64,000 nt of DNA from Candidatus Hydrogenedens sp. (GTDB lineage Bacteria > Hydrogenedentota > Hydrogenedentia > Hydrogenedentales > Hydrogenedentaceae): the NCBI GenBank assembly GCA_049968235.1, contig JBMFRC010000005.1, positions 1 to 64,000 on the forward strand, in the 5' to 3' direction. A program made the translations under genes and the position numbers. Below the pieces are notes generated by a model, which saw only the letters and a list, made by a program, of their open reading frames with translations, was not told where the DNA came from and did not search any database. Positions 51,689-63,800 of the stretch are shown here, piece by piece. The first letter of the stretch is position 1. Every line of letters begins with the position of its first letter.

Positions 51689-52489
51689 CTAAATTTTACC
51701 TAACACACCTCTATCCTGCATCTTTTGACATAATACCCTTTTTCCCTTTTCCGTCAAATTGTCTAAAATATCTTTCCTCCGTAGTACTGTGATTACCTGG
51801 TTTGTGTCAAGATTTTTTACCACTTTTAAGTCTCCCTCTCCCAATTCTTCAGCAACTTGTTTACCTAATCCCGGATGCTTCGCTTCCACTTCTAAAATCT
51901 CTTTACCAAATGTCTTCACCAAAGGCACAAGTTCATCACCACGATTTAACATCGCTTTTATTGCTTTTTTGCCCGTCTCTTCCGGGACTTCTTTCAAAAT
52001 ACGTAATGTTTGCGATAAGCCATATTTCCGTGCCACTAAAAACACATCATCCCCATGTTTTAACATTTGCTCACCCAATTCTTTAAGTAACTTCTTCGCT
52101 CCTTCCTCTCCAACTTCTTGTACAGTACGTTCTGCCAATTCTTCAGCTGCCTCTTTTCCCAGTTTTTTCCCGATATTTTCAGCAATTTCCTGCCCACCTT
52201 TCTTATCTATATATTCCATAACTTCTCTTACTATCCCTTTTGCTACAGCAGAGCCAACTCCCGCATGGGTATTCAGATTAACCAAAAGAATCCCTACCAA
52301 AACGAACAAACTCAATACAAAGACCCTCTCAATTCTCATAGAACAATTCCTCAAATTACATGTATCACTCTCTTGCTTACTCATACCTTTTCCTCCTTCT
52401 TTACTGTTTACATGTTTCATTGTTTTTGGATAAAAACTCATATCGATTCTCCTCCGTTCATCATTTATTGTATATGTGTTTTTCATCAT
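51689..52489 (-). CDS. hypothetical membrane-anchored K/E/G-rich protein
   Basis: TM VFVLSLFVLVGILLV, then a charged helical region. The antisense ORF 51759..52433 is low-complexity and was rejected. Confidence 0.35.
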   Translation of the reverse strand: MMKNTYTINDERRRIDMSFYPKTMKHVNSKEGGKGMSKQESDTCNLRNCSMRIERVFVLSLFVLVGILLVNLNTHAGVGSAVAKGIVREVMEYIDKKGGQEIAENIGKKLGKEAAEELAERTVQEVGEEGAKKLLKELGEQMLKHGDDVFLVARKYGLSQTLRILKEVPEETGKKAIKAMLNRGDELVPLVKTFGKEILEVEAKHPGLGKQVAEELGEGDLKVVKNLDTNQVITVLRRKDILDNLTEKGKRVLCQKMQDRGVLGKI

Positions 52490-52963
52490 CTGTTCTCCTA
52501 TGCTACTTTATTTCTTCATTGTACCCGTCCCTCTTTTAGACTCCAATTGTTTATATGTATTGTTATAAATTCTGTTTTTTATAACTAATCACTTTTGTTT
52601 TTTATTTACATCTATATTCATAATTTATCTATATTCATAATTTATCCTTCTTATTTTTGCTTCAATGAATTCATATTCAATTGTTGTTCTATTGATAACA
52701 ATCTCTGTGCCAACTGAATATATTTTTGATGAAATATATTCATGTTATTTATTAGCAATGAGATACAATATAATTGCGGTTTGGGAAATATTCTCTCTTC
52801 CCATTCCTTTCCCAAAATATGTAAAGAAGGATTTAAATCTTTTAAATTTCCTTTACGCCCATCACTTAGAAAACTCAACGAAATACTACACAACATAACA
52901 TCTATTTTCTTTTCCTCCATTTTGTCATTTAACCCGTTCATAAATTCCTCCTCTTCCTCCTCC

Positions 52964-53170
52964 TTATTTCCTATTCCGATATAATGCACTTATGCCCCTT
53001 GCCACAAAATAAAAAGATATACCCGAACCAACCAAAACAGAAAATAACCATATTACATTACAAAAAGCATTAGCTACCTTAATCCCTAATATCGATAAAA
53101 CAATCCCAACTATTATAACTATTTCCGATGATAATATCGCTTTTAATCCGCTTATAATTATACTCATCAT
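52964..53170 (-). CDS. small membrane protein (68 aa, 2 TM)
   Basis: Translationally coupled (ATGA) to the upstream 83-aa membrane protein. Confidence 0.3.
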   Translation of the reverse strand: MMSIIISGLKAILSSEIVIIVGIVLSILGIKVANAFCNVIWLFSVLVGSGISFYFVARGISALYRNRK

Positions 53171-53418
53171 ATCTTGTCCTCCTTATTTCTTAAGGTTTGT
53201 GTTGCAATATAAAAAACTACATGTATTCCCGCTATTACTCCACACAAAACTATTAACCAAAATATCATCTTCATTAACAAACTCATTACCTTCATTCCTA
53301 CAAAAAACACCGCAACTCCTATGGCTAACTTACCTAAAGGATGCACAGATCCCACATATTTCCAGATATTTTCAATAAACCACTTCATTGCACCCCTGAT
53401 ACTTTCCCATTTTTTCAT
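53167..53418 (-). CDS. small membrane protein (83 aa, 2 TM)
   Basis: Hydrophobic helices LAIGVAVFFVGMKVMSLL and IFWLIVLCGVIAGIHVVFYI. Confidence 0.3.
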   Translation of the reverse strand: MKKWESIRGAMKWFIENIWKYVGSVHPLGKLAIGVAVFFVGMKVMSLLMKMIFWLIVLCGVIAGIHVVFYIATQTLRNKEDKI

Positions 53419-53988
53419 TATATCTTCTATTATCGGCTACCTTTTCTTTCTCTTTGTTCTGTTTACCTCTACTATCTTACAGTTCTCGCCCAATGGCGAC
53501 ATCTTCCTCGTTTCTTCCGGTAACAACCCCACTGCTTCCGATTCACTCTCTCCTCCTCTAAATAACTCCTTTATACCCCAACCACAAGCAATATAAATAC
53601 CGTCATACATCCGGATATTATCACCATCCACACAATTAGTTTCGGCTTTAATGGTGAAGTCTATTCATTGATTACAGTCTCCGGCGACGGCGTCGTCAAC
53701 CATGATATAACAGGATATAAACCACCTACACCAATTACTGCCCATTTTGCTATTTCAAAAAATATACTCATATTGTTATTTCCTTTATTAAGTTAATATT
53801 CAATTGTACTTAATATTTAGCAATACCCATGCCAAGCAGAACAAATGATAGAATATTTCTTTATTAAACAAAATAAATAACTGATATATAATAACTTAAA
53901 ACAAAATAATTATTTATAATGATTATATAAACCCTGCACTACATAAAGAGTATTTAAATCGTATTTACGAATTTAAATCAAAGAATAT

Positions 53989-54420
53989 TTACGCCCCCTT
54001 ATTCATTCTCTCTAATCGCTCCGAAAGCACATGAATAATATTCATTAAAAAACGAACCGCAATCTTCGTATCCATCATAGTAGACAATTGATGCTCATCC
54101 ATCGTAAACACACGGACAGGCATAAGAGCGACCGCAGACGCTGTACGCGGGGTCCTATTCAAAACGGACATCTCACCAAATACATCCCCAACACCAACCA
54201 CTGCTATCTCTTTCGCCTTCTTATATAAGCCCACCTTGCCTGATAATACTACAAACAAAGCAGAACCTAATTGCCCTTCATAAAAAATTGTTTTCCCCTG
54301 CGGATAATCAAAAATCTTCCCCTGCTTTAGAAGACATGCAATTTCTTCAGGGGTTAGCCCTTTGAATAAAGATACCTTTTCTGCATATTGCTGATACTTT
54401 GCCAAATTCTCCATATTCAA
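53989..54420 (-). CDS. stand-alone cyclic-nucleotide-binding (cNMP/CAP-family) domain protein
   Basis: FYEGQLGSALFVVLSGKVGLYK...GDVFGEMSVLNRTPRTASAVA is a canonical cNMP-binding beta-roll (FGE..l, R.A.a). No HTH follows. Confidence 0.65.
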   Translation of the reverse strand: MNMENLAKYQQYAEKVSLFKGLTPEEIACLLKQGKIFDYPQGKTIFYEGQLGSALFVVLSGKVGLYKKAKEIAVVGVGDVFGEMSVLNRTPRTASAVALMPVRVFTMDEHQLSTMMDTKIAVRFLMNIIHVLSERLERMNKGA

Positions 54421-54529
54421 ACTCCAAAAATATTCTACTATAAAAATAACATAATTTTATACACATTTGTTTCCTATCGAGATTAACAAAAACCTTCTAT
54501 GGATTAACATCCATTATCCACAGATACAA

Positions 54530-54850
54530 TTTAATCATAATGGTATATAAGTTATATATGTTTTTACGAGATAAAATCCCAAGGAGAAATTAAAATACAA
54601 AAGTCTGTATCTCTACTTTTCCTATTTTATTTGCTGTTTTTCTGTCCGGTTTTCTATCTTTCGCTTACCTATGCATACTTCTCCTTTTGCCCCCTTAATT
54701 CCCCATACATCCCCTTCAAATTATAAGCAGTCAATAACAAGAAATGAGATACTCCTCTCTATATGCTCTTTCTTGTCCTCCGTGGTGAAAATTATCTCAT
54801 TGTTTTGCTGAAAGTCCTGCCAGCCGTGCGGTTTTTATAGACGCATCCTA
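54530..54850 (+). repeat. intergenic composite repeat, copy A (family of 3 in this window)
   Basis: Shares ...tatatatgttttta(c/t)gagataaaatcc(c/g)a.gagaaattaaaatacaa.agtct.tatctctactt..., ...ttatttgctgtttt(t)ctgtccg... and ...cttaattccccatacatcc.cttcaaattat... with copies B and C. Confidence 0.75.
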
Positions 54851-55403
54851 AATCCGCCTGCATGGCAAATGCATCTCTATGTAGGAGCGAATAATCATTT
54901 GCTCAAAAAACGGATATATGTTATTTGCATTTAACTATTAAAGGGAATAGAAGAATTAATGATGGCAACGAAATAAAATTTTTATTTCATACGGGCGAAA
55001 ATGCTTGTAATACATTAATGTAATTATTTTTGTAATGGTTACGATTTTCCGAAGTGAGGGAAGTTGAAAGAGTAGAAACCGATAAATATTAATACAACTT
55101 GTTGGTGTATTGGTTATGTTTACTACGGGGTTTTTGTATGAGACCAGATAAAAAGACTGCGGCGATTTTTGGGGACATGTTATAAGAGAAGTTGTAAGAT
55201 AAAATAAAATTAAAAGTTAAAATGCAGGAGAAATGAGAGATTTTATGGAAGATTTTGTATATTCGAGATGAGACAAATATAGAACGAACATACAGGTTTA
55301 CAGAGAATAAATTATGAGGGAAATAGGTGAAAAAATGTTTTGAAAAAGGAAAGCGTTTGAAGTAATATATGTATATAAATGAATATAATCAGGAGGAATT
55401 CTA

Positions 55404-55766
55404 ATGACACATACGACAAATCCTGAAGACAGAAGGAAGTATCCACGTAGTAAACATGGTCTGAAAATTCCTATTGAATCCAAAGGACCGGGAATACTCA
55501 ATCATGTAGATAATATTAGTGCCAATGGCGTTTTGTGCCATACGGTTCAGCCTATCCCGTTAATGACCCGGATGCAGATAGTAGTGGAACTCCCAAAACC
55601 TTTTAAACATCGAATTCTGGCAGAAGGAATTGTTGTCCGCTGTAATAAAGATGAACTGGGAGATGACCATTTTAAGGTGGGCATCGTTTTTACCCGCATC
55701 GATGAAAAAGACCAGGAAAAAATACGCGAATTTGTTGAACAGAGTCTCTCTAAAAAAGATGATTAG
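55404..55766 (+). CDS. PilZ-domain (c-di-GMP-binding) protein
   Basis: RRKYPRSKH (RxxxR) followed by DNISANGVLC (D.S.GG-like), which is the PilZ bipartite motif. RBS AGGAGGAA. Confidence 0.6.
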   Translation: MTHTTNPEDRRKYPRSKHGLKIPIESKGPGILNHVDNISANGVLCHTVQPIPLMTRMQIVVELPKPFKHRILAEGIVVRCNKDELGDDHFKVGIVFTRIDEKDQEKIREFVEQSLSKKDD

Positions 55767-55780
55767 ATAAGTATTTTAAT

Positions 55781-56590
55781 ATGATTAATGAAGTTGGTGC
55801 TATAAAAGAAAAACGCGGTAGAAAACAAAAGAAAATAGCTAATAGCCCTGAAAAAAAAATCCTCCTGTTCGGAAAAGATGTAAAAGAAATTCTACCTCTT
55901 TTTAAGAAATTTCCCCAATTAAAGATAGTCCAGGACGCCCCGGATTTTGTTTTAAGTTATGGAGGTGATGGCACATTACTTTCGGCTGAGTATGAATATC
56001 CTCACATACCCAAGATTCCTGTATTAAAAAGTTTGCGTGGGCATCGTTGCATCCATCATCCACCCGAAGAGGTATTGAGGAGATTAACAGAAGACAAACT
56101 CATACCGTATCGATATATGAAATTAATTTGCTCCCTTTATCCCGGAGGAACAACGAGTCCATCGCACCAATTTGAATCCTTAAATGAAGTAATGGTGGAA
56201 AAAGGGAAAATAAACACCGCTGTCCGATTTAAACTCTGGATTGATGGTATCTCTTATGAAGGGGATGATAAGGATATACTCGGTGATGGCTTTATGATAA
56301 GCACACCTTTTGGTAGCACAGCTTATTTTTCGAATGTTACGCGGGGTATTTTTTGGAATGGAATTGGTATCGCGTTTTTAGCAACCTCAGAAGCAGTAAC
56401 ACATATGATTTTATCAGAGGATAGTCTAGTTGAAGTAAAAATAACACGAGGACCTGCTATTCTCGCACATGATAATGCACCGGAATCCATACCGCTACAA
56501 GCGGGGGATATACTTGTTGTAAAAAAATCTCCAAAAGATGCCATTATCTATTCCTGCGGTGTAGTTCACAAATTATCCGAACCATTCTAA
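55781..56590 (+). CDS. nadK: NAD(+) kinase
   Basis: GGDGTLL motif (VLSYGGDGTLLSA), NE...E and DG...TPFGSTAYFSN motifs. It lies 14 bp downstream of the PilZ gene. Confidence 0.8.
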   Translation: MINEVGAIKEKRGRKQKKIANSPEKKILLFGKDVKEILPLFKKFPQLKIVQDAPDFVLSYGGDGTLLSAEYEYPHIPKIPVLKSLRGHRCIHHPPEEVLRRLTEDKLIPYRYMKLICSLYPGGTTSPSHQFESLNEVMVEKGKINTAVRFKLWIDGISYEGDDKDILGDGFMISTPFGSTAYFSNVTRGIFWNGIGIAFLATSEAVTHMILSEDSLVEVKITRGPAILAHDNAPESIPLQAGDILVVKKSPKDAIIYSCGVVHKLSEPF

Positions 56591-56890
56591 TTTAATATTC
56601 GAGACCTGTGAACAATTCGTGTAAGAGGTTAGGGTATAAATGGTATATATTTTTATGAGATAAAATTCCGATGAGAAATTAAAATACAAAAATCTGTATC
56701 TTTACTTTTACCCATTTTATTTCCTGTTTTCTGTCCGTTTTTTTTTCTTTTCACATGAAGCATTAACAAGAAAGGATAGATCCGCTCTCTGTGCCTCTCC
56801 GTGTCCTCCTTGCTGGAAAAAATATAATCACCACAGAGAACAAAGAGAAATCATCACTCACTACACAACAATGCATAAAATAGTAAGGAC
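56591..56890 (+). repeat. intergenic composite repeat, copy B
   Basis: Begins immediately after the nadK stop. Contains the conserved 5' module and the hairpin module ctctgtgcc.ctccgtgtcctc...aatataatca.ccacagagaaca.agagaaa. Confidence 0.75.
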
Positions 56891-57466
56891 AGAAGTTTTC
56901 GCTTTCCCCGGTTCGCCTTTATATACTCCTTTCTATATGCCCTCTGCTCAAATTTCTTTCCATGCTATCACCTCTTGCATCTGTCTCAAAAAAACATCTG
57001 CGACGGGTCGCTTTCTGATGGGGCAATTCGTAATCTATTAAACTTGTTTATTCTATCTTTTTACCAAACTGTGTTGACCTTTTTTCATTTTTAGTTTTTC
57101 CTTGCTTTGTTATTCAAGCCACAATACTTCTGCTATATTTATATCACTTCTTTCTCTTCTAAATTCATTTTTTCCTTCACTCCTTCTCGTATATAATTTA
57201 TATCCTCTAACTTTTATGACTTATTTATAGGTTTTATCCATTATTTTGAAGATTTTTTTCAGGGGCAATATCCTTTATTTAAAGTTTAATTGGAATAGTA
57301 ATATTCGTAAGTAATTGATATATATTACAATTATTAGGATTATGATATTTTAATAATGAAAAATTCCAAATATAAATGCAAATTTTTGTTATATATATTA
57401 TAATAATATTAATAAATAATTATTTATGTTATAAAATATAATAATAATTATGTAAGGGAGATAATT

Positions 57467-57946
57467 ATGTTGTATCGTAAAGAAACAAAAGATACATATC
57501 ATGTGATGTGTTCTTGTGGACAAACATATCCTATTGTTAATCCGGACCTAATCGCTCAGTTAACCTGTGGTGTTTGTGGGAAGATTATAAAAGTTAGTCA
57601 AGATAATTTGATCGAGCCTAATGAAAGCAATACAGCCATCTATCGTAGATTAAAAAACAGTCCGCCCATAGAACGAATAATAGAAGGAATTCGCCTTATT
57701 AAAGAGGGAAAATGGGAACATGCTTTTCCTTTATTCCAGTCTGTGGTAAATGAAAACAGACCAGTCCGCGAAGCCTTTTATGGCTTGGGATATTGTTATT
57801 ATAAAGAAAAAGACTATCTGAATAGTCTTATTTTTCTTGGAGTTGCGTTATATTTGGGGCATCCTCATGCCCAAACCCTGTATGAAAAAGTCAAACAAAT
57901 ATTAAAGATTGATGGGAGCATTATACCGCCGAAGTTGGGAGAATAA
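57467..57946 (+). CDS. hypothetical protein with an N-terminal Zn-ribbon (CSCG...CGVCG) and a TPR-like C-terminus
   Basis: Four Cys in a CxC...CxxC arrangement. YGLGYCYYKEKDYLNSL is a TPR-like helix. Extremely AT-rich upstream region. Confidence 0.45.
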   Translation: MLYRKETKDTYHVMCSCGQTYPIVNPDLIAQLTCGVCGKIIKVSQDNLIEPNESNTAIYRRLKNSPPIERIIEGIRLIKEGKWEHAFPLFQSVVNENRPVREAFYGLGYCYYKEKDYLNSLIFLGVALYLGHPHAQTLYEKVKQILKIDGSIIPPKLGE

Positions 57947-58164
57947 TTTGGCTTTGTATTCTTAAAATACGCTCCAATACTAACCTATTCTTTTTAGAAG
58001 TCATGTACTTGAAATATGTCTATTCTTTATAATTAAACTATTATAATATTTGGAATAACTTTGTTTTACTATTTATACGATAGACAGGATGTTACTAAAA
58101 TTATATTAGCCAAAATAGATTATTATTAACTTTATTGAAATATAATTAACAGAAGGAGATTATC

Positions 58165-58947
58165 ATGAGTTATAACTATCTACTTACAGAGAAAGTGAAT
58201 GCGAGTTTCTGGGTTACTCTGAACCGTCCCAAGGCGAATGCTCTTTCTCGCGAATTACTTATAGAGATTTACAACGCCATTGAGGAAGCAGAGAAAGACC
58301 CGAATGTGAGGGCTGTTATAATTACAGGAGGTGATGGGAAATTTTTTGCGGCAGGTGCAGATATTCCGACCATAGCAGAGGACCTTGATGACCCTATGGG
58401 CGAAGGGAAGATGCTTTCACAGGGGATAAAAACGATGAATCGCATAGAAGCATGCACAAAACCCGTGATTGCTGGGGTCAATGGTTTTGCTTTAGGTGGT
58501 GGTTGTGAACTGGCACTTGCCTGTCATATTCGAATTGCTTCTGCAATGGCGACATTTGGTCAACCTGAAATTAACTTAGGGATTATTCCCGGTTGGGGAG
58601 GAACATTTCGTCTCCCTCGTGTTGTTGGTGAAGGTCTCGCTATGGATTTGATATTAACAGGTAGAAGTATATCCGCAGAGGAAGCCTTACGGTATGGTCT
58701 GGTCAGTAAGGTTGTTCCTCATGAAGAACTGAGAAAAACGGCACAGGAATTGGCAGACCTGCTTACGAGCAAACCACCTGTGGCACTTCGTGAACTTATT
58801 TTATTGCAAAAAAAGCGAATAACAGAGCCTGCTCATGCTCCGGATTATGAAAAATCTGCATTTGAGCAATGTGCAAAAACAGCAGATGCTCGGGAAGGTG
58901 TAGAAGCATTTTTAAATAAACGTACGCCTCAATTTAAGGGCATATAA
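58165..58947 (+). CDS. enoyl-CoA hydratase/isomerase (crotonase) family
   Basis: Oxyanion-hole and catalytic motifs GGDGKFFAAGADI, NGFALGGGCELALACH and PE...G. Length 260 aa. RBS GAAGGAG. Confidence 0.8.
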   Translation: MSYNYLLTEKVNASFWVTLNRPKANALSRELLIEIYNAIEEAEKDPNVRAVIITGGDGKFFAAGADIPTIAEDLDDPMGEGKMLSQGIKTMNRIEACTKPVIAGVNGFALGGGCELALACHIRIASAMATFGQPEINLGIIPGWGGTFRLPRVVGEGLAMDLILTGRSISAEEALRYGLVSKVVPHEELRKTAQELADLLTSKPPVALRELILLQKKRITEPAHAPDYEKSAFEQCAKTADAREGVEAFLNKRTPQFKGI

Positions 58948-59138
58948 ACAGTACTTAAATCCAGGAACTTTTATAGCGTGTGAAGTATCCTCATGAAAAG
59001 TAAGAATGTTTACTCATTCAACACACTATTTTTTGTTCATTGGTAGATATATTACCATGTAAAATCAGTTGTTTTGACTGGTTTCGTCGTTCAGGATTGA
59101 GGTGCATATAGGGACCATATTACGGATGTTCTCTATAT

Positions 59139-60482
59139 ATGGTAATATATAGGTGTATATTAGAGAATGAATTTATGCTGATAGTAGATATAGTAAAATC
59201 GTTGAACAAAATGTTGGGTTTATTTAACCCACAATTAGCCCCGCATCTGGCACAGGTTACATATTTAAGTAAGAAAATAGGTGAACATCTGGGCTTGTCT
59301 CCACAGGCAATGCAGGACTTAGTAATAGCCTCGTCTATTCATGATATTGGTTTACTGTCTTTATCTCAGAAAGAAAGTTATTTGCTTTTAGAAGAGAGTT
59401 TCCCTGCGACGCATTCATTAACAGTCTTTTTATTGTTTAATAATATCCCATTTTTTCATCAGCCATCTAAGATCGTTAAATATCATCATGCTAATTATGA
59501 TAGGCGGGGCATCCATTCTTTTCAAAATAACTTTGATGATGGTTCAATTCCATTAGAAAGTTATATCATTAGATTGGCAGATCGATTGGCGGTTCATATA
59601 AATCCGTTGCAACCGATTCTCGAGCAGGTAGAGGATGTTTATCGATACATCGAGGTAAGCAAGGATCTTTACCATCCTGAAGTATTAGATGTATTTAATT
59701 CTGTTATTAAGAAGCAGGACTATCTATGGCTTGAATTAGTAACCATTCCCCCCGATTTGATGTTGGAAAAAATTTTATTAGAGAGTATGAGCCGGGTGCC
59801 GGAAAAAAATATATTTTCAGAAATAGCAGAAATAATCGGGTATTTAATTGATTTTAAAAGTCAATTTACAGCAAGTCATAGTTATTGTGTTGCGGAAATA
59901 TCTTCGTGGTTATTTCATTCCGGTAAGTTCCCCGTGGAAGAGCCGTGTGATATTATTCGAGAGGCAGGTTTCCTGCATGATATAGGGAAATTGGCTATAC
60001 CTATAGAGATACTTGAGAAACCGGGGCAACTCAATTCAAAAGAGTGGAATATTATGCGAGCCCATGTGTATTACAGTCATATTGCATTAGAGACTATGTA
60101 TAAGGAATATCCGTGTTTGAGGTATACGCCATATCATCATGAAAAATTAGATGGTTCGGGTTATCCATTCGGCTTAAAGGGAGAAGATATTCCTGTTATT
60201 GCTCGAATTATTGCTGTATCCGATGTATTTACTGCAATTACAGAGAACAGACCATACCGTGGCGAATTAACCGAAAGTGAAGTTGTAAAAATCATGAAGC
60301 CTATGGCAGTTTCAAAGAAGTTAGATGAAGATATAGTAAATTATGTCCTTGCCCATTTTAAAGAAGCAAAAGAACGGCGTGATGAGGCGGAATCTTTAGC
60401 CCGGCATGTTTATAACGGGTTTAGAGAAGATATTAGAAAGTATTACGAAAATGAACTAAAGAGTAAAAGAATAAGTGTATAA
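59139..60482 (+). CDS. tandem HD-GYP-domain protein (c-di-GMP phosphodiesterase family); the N-terminal copy looks degenerate
   Basis: C-terminal copy HSYCVAE...FLHDIGKLAIP...YHHEKLDGSGYPFGL (HD ... HHExxDGSGYP). N-terminal copy AQVTYLSKKIGE...SIHDIGLL...KYHHANYDRRG. Confidence 0.7.
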   Translation: MVIYRCILENEFMLIVDIVKSLNKMLGLFNPQLAPHLAQVTYLSKKIGEHLGLSPQAMQDLVIASSIHDIGLLSLSQKESYLLLEESFPATHSLTVFLLFNNIPFFHQPSKIVKYHHANYDRRGIHSFQNNFDDGSIPLESYIIRLADRLAVHINPLQPILEQVEDVYRYIEVSKDLYHPEVLDVFNSVIKKQDYLWLELVTIPPDLMLEKILLESMSRVPEKNIFSEIAEIIGYLIDFKSQFTASHSYCVAEISSWLFHSGKFPVEEPCDIIREAGFLHDIGKLAIPIEILEKPGQLNSKEWNIMRAHVYYSHIALETMYKEYPCLRYTPYHHEKLDGSGYPFGLKGEDIPVIARIIAVSDVFTAITENRPYRGELTESEVVKIMKPMAVSKKLDEDIVNYVLAHFKEAKERRDEAESLARHVYNGFREDIRKYYENELKSKRISV

Positions 60483-63480: not shown

Positions 63481-63800
63481 AATATGAGAGACTTCTGAAC
63501 AATCAGTGTAAGAGGTAATGTTATAAATTATACATGTTTTTATGAGATAAAATCCCGATGAGAAATTAAAATACAAGAGTCTATATCTCTACTTCTATCC
63601 GTTTATATATCTTTTTGTATCGATGCATATTTGTCCTTTTGCTCCCTTAATTCCCCATACATCCACTTCAAATTATTGCGGACATTAACAAAAAATGATA
63701 TGCTCATCTTCTATGCATCTCTGTGCCCCTCCGTGTCCTCTGTGGTGAAAAGAATATAATCAACCACAGAGAACACAGAGAAACACGGAGAAAAAAGGAT
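63481..63800 (+). repeat. intergenic composite repeat, copy C
   Basis: Begins ~200 bp after the dehydrogenase stop. Carries all four modules, including the clear hairpin CTCTGTGGT-gaaaagaatataatcaa-CCACAGAG. Confidence 0.75.

What the first reader, a model, noticed from the sequence alone, without database searches (positions are those of the whole stretch)
53989..60482. Nucleotide second-messenger neighbourhood: stand-alone cNMP-binding protein, PilZ-NadK operon and a tandem HD-GYP protein, interleaved with the repeat elements
A 143-aa effector-less cNMP-binding domain, a PilZ protein 14 bp upstream of NAD kinase, and a double HD-GYP protein (degenerate N-terminal copy, intact C-terminal HHExxDGSGYP) all lie within 6.5 kb. 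A PilZ gene co-transcribed with nadK has not been described as far as I know and hints at c-di-GMP-linked control of NADP(H) supply. The degenerate HD-GYP copy may be a sensor or regulatory domain.
Basis: inference. Interest (0 to 1): 0.5.

Follow-up and report, generated by a model that had tools for sequence, protein, structure and literature searches.

The report
Conserved PilZ–NAD kinase operon in Hydrogenedentota
A small c-di-GMP-receptor-type protein (PilZ) sits 14 bases upstream of a very divergent NAD kinase gene, and this pairing recurs in 49 of 80 related genomes of the uncultured phylum Hydrogenedentota, which hints at an untested link between c-di-GMP signalling and NADP supply; the cNMP-binding and HD-GYP genes nearby are not found near PilZ in the relatives examined.

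Summary
The PilZ (55404-55766) passes Pfam with both c-di-GMP-binding motifs intact. The next gene (55781-56590) is a very divergent but full-length NAD kinase, judged by motifs and predicted fold. The 447-aa protein is an N-terminal HD domain without GYP followed by an intact HD-GYP domain. The cNMP protein is a single domain.

The window comes from a Hydrogenedens-like member of Hydrogenedentota. In 80 species-level genomes, a NadK of this family lies downstream of the PilZ ortholog on the same strand in 49. It is directly adjacent in 20, in at least eight separate clades. In 29 it is further downstream, usually after one fused ABC permease gene with tight junctions. No other neighbour cluster is shared by more than 9 loci.

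The wider "second-messenger neighbourhood" is not conserved. Neither the cNMP gene nor the HD-GYP gene lies within 4 kb of PilZ even in the closest relatives. The HD/HD-GYP tandem is a described subfamily. PilZ relatives outside the orthogroup have other neighbours.

I read this as a phylum-specific pilZ-(permease)-nadK operon. Direct PilZ control of NadK is a plausible inference with no direct test. No paper in the searchable library links PilZ or c-di-GMP with NAD kinase.

The parts
55404..55766 (+). Stand-alone PilZ-domain protein (120 aa), first gene of the operon. RxxxR motif at 55431-55448; NxSxxG motif at 55512-55529.
   Evidence: Pfam PF07238, 51.2 bits against a cut-off of 22.5. R10, R11, Y13, R15, S16, D36, N37, I38, S39 and G42 are invariant in 31 orthologs. 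The AF2 model (pLDDT 66.7) has PilZ structures as its best PDB matches: MotI/DgrA 5vx6, MapZ-CheR1 5y4r/5xly, PA4608 and Alg44.
55340..55397 (+). Promoter-like site (TTGAAA-17-TAATAT, 55340-55368) and AGGAGG Shine-Dalgarno sequence (55392-55397) upstream of PilZ.
   Evidence: Consensus scan and sequence read. The last 66 nt before the PilZ ATG are 91% identical to Ca. Hydrogenedens terephthalaticus (L002), while the rest of the 983-bp spacer is not conserved.
55781..56590 (+). Divergent NAD kinase (269 aa), 14 nt downstream of the PilZ stop codon. GGDGT motif at 55961-55975.
   Evidence: Pfam NAD_kinase_C, 32 bits against a cut-off of 23.7. GGDGT, NE, DG and TxFGSxAY are invariant in 40 homologs. 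AF2 pLDDT 89.7. Foldseek top 50 are nearly all NAD/NADH kinases, E about 1e-20, TM 0.75, 18-21% identity.
53989..54420 (-). Single-domain cNMP-binding protein (141-143 aa), divergent from PilZ across a 983-bp spacer. Not part of the conserved unit.
   Evidence: PF00027, 67.9 bits. No homolog within 4 kb of PilZ in any of 80 relatives. The 141-aa form is annotated in same-species MAGs.
59139..60482 (+). HD-[HD-GYP]-type phosphodiesterase (447 aa). N-terminal HD_5 domain without GYP (about 59202-59600). C-terminal HD-GYP domain (about 59802-60389) with HHEKLDGSGYP at 60135-60167. Not part of the conserved unit.
   Evidence: Pfam HD_5, 132 bits, two stretches. The N-terminal half alone scores 33.8 bits. 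Best PDB matches are 5z7c V-cGAP3 (E 2e-31) and 4mcw PmGH. Absent next to PilZ in the closest relatives.
57467..58947 (+). Zn-ribbon/TPR-like protein (57467-57946) and enoyl-CoA hydratase (58165-58947). These downstream neighbours are conserved only within the Hydrogenedens clade.
   Evidence: Pfam. tblastn finds both downstream of NadK in L001-L004, L006 and L007, and nowhere else.
54505..54802 (.). Repeat element, copy A, in the spacer upstream of PilZ.
   Evidence: the repeat finder families D1-D3 and blastn. Absent from the corresponding spacers of relatives.
56594..56850 (.). Repeat element, copy B, starting 4 nt after the nadK stop codon. It lies within about 700 bp of extra spacer that relatives lack.
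   Evidence: The NadK-to-ZnTPR spacer is 877 bp here against 186-300 bp in L001-L007. The same-species contig L082 leaves the window's synteny inside this copy.
63481..63783 (.). Repeat element, copy C, carrying a hairpin (CTCTGTGGTGA...TCACCACAGAG).
   Evidence: Sub-threshold hairpin (miRNA-like) Rfam hits at 63717-63792.

Best explanation
Shown:
- pilZ and nadK form a co-transcribed pair. It is the local form of a Hydrogenedentota-wide operon that always starts with a highly conserved stand-alone PilZ.
- In most lineages the PilZ gene is followed, with overlapping or very short junctions, by a fused two-domain ABC permease gene and then by the phylum's divergent NAD kinase gene.
- In the Hydrogenedens lineage, and in at least seven other clades, the permease is absent and PilZ abuts NadK.
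- The PilZ keeps every residue needed to bind c-di-GMP. The NadK keeps the catalytic motifs and the fold.

Inferred mechanism: the PilZ is a c-di-GMP-loaded adaptor, working like MapZ does on CheR1. It binds its operon partner NadK (and/or the permease) and so tunes NAD-to-NADP conversion to the c-di-GMP state of the cell. This would be a bacterial analogue of Ca2+/calmodulin-activated NAD kinase.

The cNMP-binding protein and the HD-[HD-GYP] phosphodiesterase are ordinary signalling genes. They sit nearby in this one genome, next to species-specific repeat insertions.

Confidence by step: a conserved operon with competent parts, about 0.85; a direct PilZ-NadK regulatory interaction, about 0.3.
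For: - PilZ passes the HMM and its motifs are invariant.
- The gap to nadK is 14 nt with no terminator-like site. The gap is 12-31 nt in L002-L007.
- NadK-family ORFs occur in 49 of 80 loci, all downstream of PilZ and all on the same strand. Of the loci with at least 2.8 kb of downstream flank, 23 lack it.
- Direct adjacency occurs in at least eight separate clades of the NadK tree, interleaved with pilZ-permease-nadK.
- PilZ-to-permease junctions run from -14 to +39 nt, and permease-to-NadK junctions from 0 to about 130 nt.
- No other neighbour cluster is shared by more than 9 loci.
- PilZ is more conserved than NadK at the same distances, for example 60% against 42% in L046.
- NadK fold and motifs are intact.
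- The closest structural matches include the stand-alone adaptor MapZ bound to its enzyme target CheR1.
- c-di-GMP enzymes occur next to the unit in some lineages: a CHASE4-HAMP-PAS-GGDEF gene lies divergently upstream in L019, with the same GGDEF motif in L022 and L025, and an HD-GYP gene lies upstream in L069.
Against: - There is no direct evidence of c-di-GMP binding or of any PilZ-NadK contact.
- 23 of the loci with enough flank have PilZ without NadK. In one complete 5.1-Mb genome the two genes are about 2 Mb apart (L055 against L081).
- The commonest arrangement puts a permease between the two genes, so the permease may be the true partner.
- PilZ is always the first gene and is followed by other genes (Gfo/Idh/MocA oxidoreductase, alpha/beta hydrolase) in some lineages. 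This fits a PilZ that simply heads variable operons.
- The linkage is seen in one phylum only. PilZ relatives outside the orthogroup have other neighbours.
- The PilZ model has only moderate confidence (pLDDT 66.7).
Confidence: 0.4

Rival explanations
1. The PilZ works on the ABC permease. It would act as a c-di-GMP-dependent cytoplasmic regulator of a transporter. NadK would be a passenger in the same ancestral operon, and in the window's lineage the permease was lost, leaving PilZ next to NadK by default.
For: The permease (two BPD_transp_1 domains, about 540 aa) follows PilZ in 35 of 80 loci with junctions of -14 to +39 nt, often a 4-nt overlap that suggests translational coupling. About 12 loci have PilZ-permease without NadK within reach.
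Against: After the permease is lost, PilZ and NadK stay together in at least eight separate clades, and the PilZ sequence stays equally conserved there. No ATPase or binding-protein gene accompanies the permease in these loci. PilZ-NadK (49 loci) is more frequent than PilZ-permease (35 loci).
Confidence: 0.2
2. The linkage reflects only inherited operon structure or co-expression. The PilZ acts on an unlinked target (motility, secretion, polysaccharide synthesis), and NadK is just a housekeeping gene riding on its promoter.
For: PilZ always comes first and heads different downstream genes in a third of the genomes. PilZ and NadK are unlinked in a complete genome. The linkage is confined to one phylum. 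The very high conservation of PilZ suggests a conserved partner, but not necessarily NadK.
Against: All other synteny around PilZ has eroded: no other neighbour cluster is shared by more than 9 of 80 loci. NadK is retained in 49, always downstream on the same strand, and through repeated loss or gain of the intervening gene. That pattern is hard to explain without selection on the pairing.
Confidence: 0.3
3. One reading: the cNMP protein, PilZ-NadK and the tandem HD-GYP protein form one functional second-messenger island.
For: All three lie within 6.5 kb. An HD-GYP gene also lies upstream of PilZ in one distant relative, L069.
Against: tblastn finds neither the cNMP gene nor the HD-GYP gene within 4 kb of PilZ in L001-L007, whose PilZ is 72-95% identical. 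L001, L002, L006 and L007 have TrmB, a PASTA/InlB-repeat protein and a membrane protein upstream, and a ceramidase-like gene follows the hydratase in L001, L003, L004 and L006. The window's flanks carry species-specific repeat insertions and a rearranged upstream side. The genes lie on different strands or are separated by unrelated genes.
Confidence: 0.05

Closest known systems
MapZ (PA4608) of Pseudomonas aeruginosa, a stand-alone PilZ adaptor that binds the methyltransferase CheR1 when loaded with c-di-GMP
   Same: A single PilZ domain of about 120 aa with RxxxR and [D/N]xSxxG motifs and a C-terminal helix. It is among the best structural matches (5y4r, 5xly, 1ywu). The proposed mode of action is the same: an adaptor acting on an enzyme.
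   Different: There is no sequence-level match to any solved PilZ. The putative target is different (NAD kinase and/or an ABC permease). Here the evidence is a conserved operon, not a demonstrated complex.
MotI/DgrA (YpfA) of Bacillus subtilis
   Same: It is the best Foldseek match to the PilZ model (5vx6, E 5e-3, TM 0.64), and it is a c-di-GMP receptor that acts through protein-protein contact.
   Different: MotI has two domains (209 aa) and acts on the flagellar stator. The window protein is a single domain.
Bacterial NAD kinases (NadK/PpnK: M. tuberculosis 1u0t, P. aeruginosa 7mh7/7qvs, L. monocytogenes NadK1)
   Same: The fold matches over the full length (TM about 0.75, E about 1e-20), and the GGDG, NE and TPxGSTAY-type motifs are invariant.
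   Different: Identity is only 18-21%. The Pfam N-terminal NAD_kinase model is not matched. All 18 NCBIfam NadK models that hit score 19-41 bits against cut-offs of 211-493 bits. The Hydrogenedens clade adds a 25-aa Lys/Arg-rich N-terminal extension.
Ca2+/calmodulin-activated NAD kinases of plants (analogy only, from my own knowledge)
   Same: A small second-messenger-binding adaptor controlling NAD kinase. This is what the PilZ-NadK operon would amount to if the inferred mechanism holds.
   Different: The messenger, the adaptor fold and the kingdom all differ. There is no homology, and nothing has been tested here.
HD-[HD-GYP] phosphodiesterases, including Vibrio cholerae V-cGAP3 (PDB 5z7c)
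   Same: V-cGAP3 is the best solved match (E 2e-31) and is of similar length (463 against 447 aa). The HMMER alignment shows a degenerate N-terminal copy in 5z7c as well, with EHWNGQGRP at the GYP position. The subfamily name appears in a paper title cited.
   Different: The window protein's N-terminal domain keeps the HD and HH dyads (SIHDIG, KYHHANYD), whereas the aligned 5z7c segment reads LLKDAG. Substrate (c-di-GMP or cGAMP) was not tested.
Single-domain cNMP-binding proteins and the CRP/FNR sensor domain
   Same: PF00027 with an intact phosphate-binding cassette. Partial matches to CRP, FtrB and NtcA sensor domains.
   Different: There is no DNA-binding or other output domain. No conserved link to the PilZ-NadK unit was found.

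Membership tests
PilZ domain (c-di-GMP receptor) | Match to the family profile above the curated threshold | tested here: met
   PF07238, 51.2 bits against a cut-off of 22.5, covering profile positions 1-102 of 102.
PilZ domain (c-di-GMP receptor) | RxxxR motif in the N-terminal loop | tested here: met
   R11-K-Y-P-R15. R10, R11 and R15 are invariant in 31 orthologs.
PilZ domain (c-di-GMP receptor) | [D/N]xSxxG motif | tested here: met
   N37-I-S39-A-N-G42. D36, N37, I38, S39 and G42 are invariant.
PilZ domain (c-di-GMP receptor) | Beta-barrel fold with a C-terminal helix | tested here: inconclusive
   The AF2 model has pLDDT of only 66.7, with five strands and a helix at residues 101-119. The top PDB matches are all PilZ domains, but with E-values from 5e-3 to 0.2.
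PilZ domain (c-di-GMP receptor) | Binds c-di-GMP | not testable with these tools
   This needs ITC, DRaCALA or a similar assay on purified protein.
NAD kinase (NadK/PpnK) | GGDG motif, NE motif and glycine-rich TPxGSTAY motif | tested here: met
   GGDGT (61-65), NE (135-136), DG (169-170) and TPFGSTAY (175-182). These are invariant or nearly so in 40 homologs.
NAD kinase (NadK/PpnK) | Two-domain NAD kinase fold | tested here: met
   AF2 pLDDT 89.7. Foldseek top 50 are nearly all NAD/NADH kinases, with E about 1e-20 and TM 0.70-0.79.
NAD kinase (NadK/PpnK) | Score above the curated equivalog or family thresholds | tested here: inconclusive
   Pfam NAD_kinase_C passes (32 bits against 23.7), but the N-terminal model PF01513 is not matched. 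All 18 NCBIfam NadK models that hit are far below their cut-offs: 19-41 bits against 211-493.
NAD kinase (NadK/PpnK) | Phosphorylates NAD, and is the cell's only NadK | not testable with these tools
   No enzyme assay was possible. Whole genomes could not be scanned for a second, canonical nadK.
HD-GYP phosphodiesterase (C-terminal domain) | HD dyad, HHExxDGxGYP motif and downstream Asp | tested here: met
   LHDIGK, YHHEKLDGSGYP and VSDVFTA(L/I)T..RPYR align with PmGH 4mcw and V-cGAP3 5z7c. HD_5 scores 132 bits.
HD-GYP phosphodiesterase (N-terminal domain) | GYP motif | tested here: not met
   The sequence is HHANYDRRGIHS where HHExxDGxGYP is expected, and HDIGL replaces HDIGK. The half still passes HD_5 (33.8 bits). 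It is therefore an HD_5-type domain, not a canonical HD-GYP.
Cyclic-nucleotide-binding domain | Profile match and a phosphate-binding cassette with Glu and Arg | tested here: met
   PF00027, 67.9 bits. FGEMSVLNRTPRTASAVA was read from the translation.

The most novel reading that the evidence does not exclude
A c-di-GMP-loaded stand-alone PilZ binds NAD kinase directly and switches its activity. Depending on lineage, it might also act on a partner ABC permease. The lifestyle messenger c-di-GMP would then set the size of the NADP(H) pool across a whole uncultured phylum, as a bacterial counterpart of calmodulin-regulated NAD kinase. The nearest PilZ relative outside the orthogroup sits 69 nt upstream of a phosphofructokinase, an enzyme that also gave a Pfam NAD_kinase N-terminal match just above that model's cut-off. 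This family of PilZ proteins may therefore target kinases of this general type more broadly.
Probability: 0.2. Interest if true: 0.7.

Novelty: new variant of a known kind. Interest (0 to 1): 0.45.

Why it matters
Known PilZ adaptors act on motility, secretion and polysaccharide machinery. To my knowledge, none has been reported to control a central cofactor-producing enzyme, and no paper in the searchable library links PilZ or c-di-GMP with NAD kinase. If the PilZ regulates NadK, c-di-GMP would reach directly into redox and cofactor homeostasis. That would give a second messenger a kind of control over bacterial NAD kinase that is otherwise known for calmodulin in eukaryotes.

The operon offers a clean, testable pair of small soluble proteins. 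It comes from a phylum without cultured model organisms but common in anaerobic digesters. The work also defines a very divergent NadK family that curated equivalog models miss and that some public records name only 'hypothetical protein'.

Tried and rejected
1. Functional island of cNMP, PilZ-NadK and HD-GYP. Rejected because neither flanking gene is near PilZ in any close relative.
2. Novelty of the tandem HD-GYP protein. Rejected because the best solved match is V-cGAP3 and an HD-[HD-GYP] subfamily is already named. The Sun & Pandelia and Galperin & Chou papers could not be opened, and 'tandem HD-GYP' gave no text hits.
3. Internal duplication of the HD-GYP protein. BLASTP of the two halves found only the HD motif (E 0.69). 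The N-terminal half is recognised only by the profile.
4. Extension of the PilZ-NadK link beyond the orthogroup. A profile search of 1.84 billion representatives shows a sharp drop after five representatives. The metagenome scan with outgroup PilZ proteins also pulled in in-group members. The true outgroups had no NadK by HMM or motif search; their neighbours were PFK, EPSP synthase, an M48 peptidase, FTCD_C and a histidine kinase. The first attempt, with 25 outgroup sequences, failed for lack of a conserved stretch.
5. Conservation of PilZ-PFK in the nearest outgroup. Only one lineage exists in the database, so this remains a single observation.
6. GGDEF or EAL genes in the window. A motif search found none.
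7. RNA families in the spacers and repeats. Only sub-threshold hairpin hits were found, and the fold of repeat copy B is no better than shuffled sequence (z = -0.70).
8. Small ORFs in the 983-bp spacer. Nothing convincing was found.
9. PilZ-NadK mobilised as a unit by the flanking repeats. Rejected because the downstream synteny NadK-ZnTPR-hydratase is kept, and the repeats are simple spacer insertions.

Full report
**What is in the window**

- The 143-aa ORF on the minus strand (53989-54420) is a single cNMP-binding domain. It scores 67.9 bits on PF00027, and the phosphate-binding cassette FGEMSVLNRTPRTASAVA is intact. Same-species MAGs annotate a 141-aa form that starts at the ATG at 54414.
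- The 120-aa ORF at 55404-55766 scores 51.2 bits on PF07238 (PilZ) against a cut-off of 22.5, over the whole profile. It carries RRKYPR and NISANG, the RxxxR and [D/N]xSxxG motifs.
- This ORF is preceded by an AGGAGG Shine-Dalgarno sequence and by a promoter-like site at 55340-55368.
- The next ORF (55781-56590) starts 14 nt after the PilZ stop codon, with no terminator-like site in between.
- Downstream lie a Zn-ribbon/TPR-like protein, an enoyl-CoA hydratase, the 447-aa HD-GYP protein (59139-60482), an XRE-cupin regulator on the other strand, a DUF2400 protein and a nucleotide-sugar dehydrogenase.

**The NAD kinase is real but very divergent**

- Only the Pfam C-terminal NAD_kinase model passes (32 bits against 23.7). 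All 18 NCBIfam NadK models that hit score 19-41 bits against cut-offs of 211-493.
- The best solved sequence match is P. aeruginosa NadK, at E 2e-7.
- In an alignment of 40 homologs, GGDGT (61-65), NE (135-136), DG (169-170) and TxFGSxAY (175-182) are invariant or nearly so.
- The AlphaFold model built on that alignment is confident (pLDDT 89.7). Its 50 best PDB matches are nearly all NAD or NADH kinases over the full length (E about 1e-20, TM about 0.75, 18-21% identity).
- Public records name homologs 'NAD(+)/NADH kinase', 'NAD+ kinase' or 'hypothetical protein'.
- I could not test whether it is the only NadK in these genomes.

**The PilZ orthogroup**

- The PilZ has 283 close relatives. All listed hits are about 120 aa and 55-92% identical, and the named ones come from Candidatus Hydrogenedentes/Hydrogenedentota.
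- In 31 orthologs both c-di-GMP-binding motifs are invariant. So are further positions: L44, C45, H46, T47, G75, V77, V78, R79 and C80.
- A profile search of 1.84 billion representative proteins shows a tight orthogroup. Five representatives score at E of 1e-30 or better. Scores then drop sharply into a broad population of about 120-aa stand-alone PilZ proteins, with 281 at E of 1e-10 or better.
- The AF2 model has only moderate confidence (pLDDT 66.7). Its best PDB matches are all PilZ domains: MotI/DgrA, MapZ in complex with CheR1, PA4608, Alg44 and XCC6012.

**Is the PilZ-NadK linkage conserved?**

Yes, within the phylum.

- A scan of one genome per species returned 107 loci, of which the best 80 were kept. 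All 80 are Hydrogenedentota MAGs. Some carry evidently wrong labels such as 'uncultured Nitrospirales'.
- The closest named relative is Ca. Hydrogenedens terephthalaticus, with PilZ 95% and NadK 92% identical.
- tblastn and a family HMM both find a NadK of this family in 49 of 80 loci. It is always downstream of PilZ and always on the same strand.
- In 20 loci it is directly adjacent. In 29 it lies 0.8-3.3 kb downstream, usually 1.6-2.4 kb.
- 23 loci with at least 2.8 kb of downstream flank lack it, and 8 more have too little flank to tell.
- The intervening gene is usually a fused ABC permease of about 540 aa with two BPD_transp_1 domains and no assignable substrate. That permease follows PilZ in 35 loci in all. 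Sometimes the intervening gene is an alpha/beta hydrolase instead.
- Junctions are operon-like. PilZ to permease runs from -14 to +39 nt. Permease to NadK runs from 0 to about 130 nt. PilZ to NadK runs from about -4 to 220 nt.
- On a NadK tree, direct adjacency appears in at least eight separate clades, interleaved with the three-gene form.
- No other neighbour cluster is shared by more than 9 of the 80 loci. The pairing has therefore outlasted the rest of the local synteny.
- PilZ is also more conserved than NadK at equal distances, for example 60% against 42% in L046.

**Limits of the linkage**

- In one complete 5.1-Mb genome, PilZ (L055) and NadK (L081) are about 2 Mb apart.
- In some lineages PilZ heads other genes, such as a Gfo/Idh/MocA oxidoreductase or a hydrolase.
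- The metagenome scan with the nearest PilZ proteins outside the orthogroup returned 49 loci. NadK-family ORFs were found only beside sequences that turned out to belong to the orthogroup (L087-L089, L095).
- True outgroups are followed by a phosphofructokinase, EPSP synthase (two loci), an M48 peptidase, an FTCD_C protein, a histidine kinase and others.
- As far as tested, the link is specific to the Hydrogenedentota orthogroup.

**The rest of the 'neighbourhood'**

- Neither the cNMP gene nor the HD-GYP gene occurs within 4 kb of PilZ in any of the 80 relatives, except for one HD-GYP gene upstream of PilZ in the distant locus L069.
- Four of the seven closest relatives (L001, L002, L006, L007) have TrmB, a PASTA/InlB-repeat protein and a membrane protein upstream of PilZ-NadK-ZnTPR-hydratase. 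A ceramidase-like gene follows the hydratase in L001, L003, L004 and L006.
- In the window the upstream genes are missing or elsewhere.
- The spacers contain three copies of a 250-300-bp repeat that relatives lack. The co-location of three signalling genes is therefore most simply a feature of this one genome.
- A motif search found no GGDEF or EAL gene in the 64-kb window.
- The phylum does encode diguanylate cyclases. A CHASE4-HAMP-PAS-GGDEF gene lies divergently upstream of PilZ-NadK in L019, and the same GGDEF motif is present at that position in L022 and L025.

**The HD-GYP protein**

- The C-terminal domain has every catalytic motif: LHDIGK, YHHEKLDGSGYP and the downstream Asp and RPY. 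It aligns with PmGH (4mcw) and V-cGAP3 (5z7c, E 2e-31).
- The N-terminal half alone passes Pfam HD_5 (33.8 bits against 27.2). It keeps the HD and HH dyads but has HHANYDRRG in place of the GYP motif and HDIGL in place of HDIGK.
- The two halves are not detectably similar by BLASTP.
- The HMMER alignment to 5z7c shows that V-cGAP3 also has a degenerate N-terminal copy. A paper titled 'HD-[HD-GYP] phosphodiesterases' (Sun & Pandelia 2020) is cited.
- The architecture is therefore a known kind. I could not open that paper, so what I say about the regulatory role of the N-terminal domain rests on my own recollection.

**How it most likely works**

Shown: a conserved operon led by a PilZ with intact binding motifs, followed by a competent NAD kinase.

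Inferred: the PilZ acts as a c-di-GMP-dependent adaptor on its operon partner, as MapZ does on CheR1. That would couple c-di-GMP level to NADP(H) supply. From my own knowledge, this would parallel calmodulin-activated NAD kinase in plants.

I put direct PilZ-NadK regulation at about 0.3.

No paper in the searchable library links PilZ or c-di-GMP with NAD kinase, and none deals with c-di-GMP signalling in Hydrogenedentes.

**Verdict**

The PilZ-NadK operon is genuine and conserved across a phylum, but the wider neighbourhood is incidental and the HD-GYP architecture is already known.
- All parts belong to known families. What is new is the conserved pairing, and with it a candidate new target class for PilZ adaptors.
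- Interest is moderate (0.45). It would rise to about 0.7 if a direct c-di-GMP-PilZ-NadK switch were shown.

Noticed in passing
window 54505-54802, 56594-56850, 63481-63783; L082: Three copies of a 250-300-bp intergenic repeat, 65-90% identical, with a hairpin CTCTGTGGTGA...TCACCACAGAG. They are absent from the matching spacers of relatives. Short-read MAG contigs of the same species end at or near them. One contig (L082, 99.5% identical over PilZ-NadK) leaves the window's synteny inside copy B at 56751 and continues into SIS / inositol-phosphatase / DUF386 genes. That is either a chimeric assembly or a repeat-mediated rearrangement.
   Followed up: partly
L086 862-2277; L135 2312-3727; L136: The nearest PilZ outside the Hydrogenedentota orthogroup (P0249) lies 69 nt upstream of a phosphofructokinase gene. 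Its product also gave a Pfam NAD_kinase N-terminal match of 27.8 bits against a cut-off of 25.5. Only one lineage is in the databases, so this is a single observation.
   Followed up: partly
L019 1766-3721 (-), also L022 and L025; L069 2362-3354 (+): A CHASE4-HAMP-PAS-GGDEF diguanylate cyclase gene lies divergently just upstream of PilZ-NadK in L019, and the same RFGGDEF motif sits at that position in L022 and L025. In L069 an HD-GYP gene lies about 600 bp upstream of PilZ. These are occasional independent juxtapositions of c-di-GMP enzymes with this PilZ.
   Followed up: partly
window 55781-55855 (NadK residues 1-25): A 25-aa Lys/Arg-rich N-terminal extension (MINEVGAIKEKRGRKQKKIANSPEK) is found only in the Hydrogenedens clade. 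In most other lineages NadK starts one codon before the conserved core KILLFG.
   Followed up: partly
window 55536-55544 and 55641-55643 (PilZ C45, H46, T47 and C80): Besides the c-di-GMP motifs, the PilZ orthogroup has invariant Cys45-His46 and Cys80, plus a nearly invariant GDDHF. This could be a partner-binding surface or a metal or redox site.
   Followed up: no
L027 4321-5940, L012 4348-5988 and 33 other loci: The ABC permease between PilZ and NadK is a fused two-domain protein of molybdate/sulfate/2-aminoethylphosphonate-like type, with all models below their cut-offs. No ATPase or binding-protein gene occurs in the same loci, so it is an orphan permease of unknown substrate.
   Followed up: partly
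window 52001-54000: This stretch has unusually low GC (0.33) and strongly negative GC skew (-0.47). It holds several small membrane-like ORFs on the minus strand, just upstream of the region studied.
   Followed up: no
L005, L006, L009, L010, L022, L062 and others: Many public MAG contigs that carry the Hydrogenedentota PilZ-NadK unit are labelled 'uncultured Nitrospirales/Nitrospiraceae' or 'Bathyarchaeia'. These labels are probably taxonomic or binning errors in the records.
   Followed up: no
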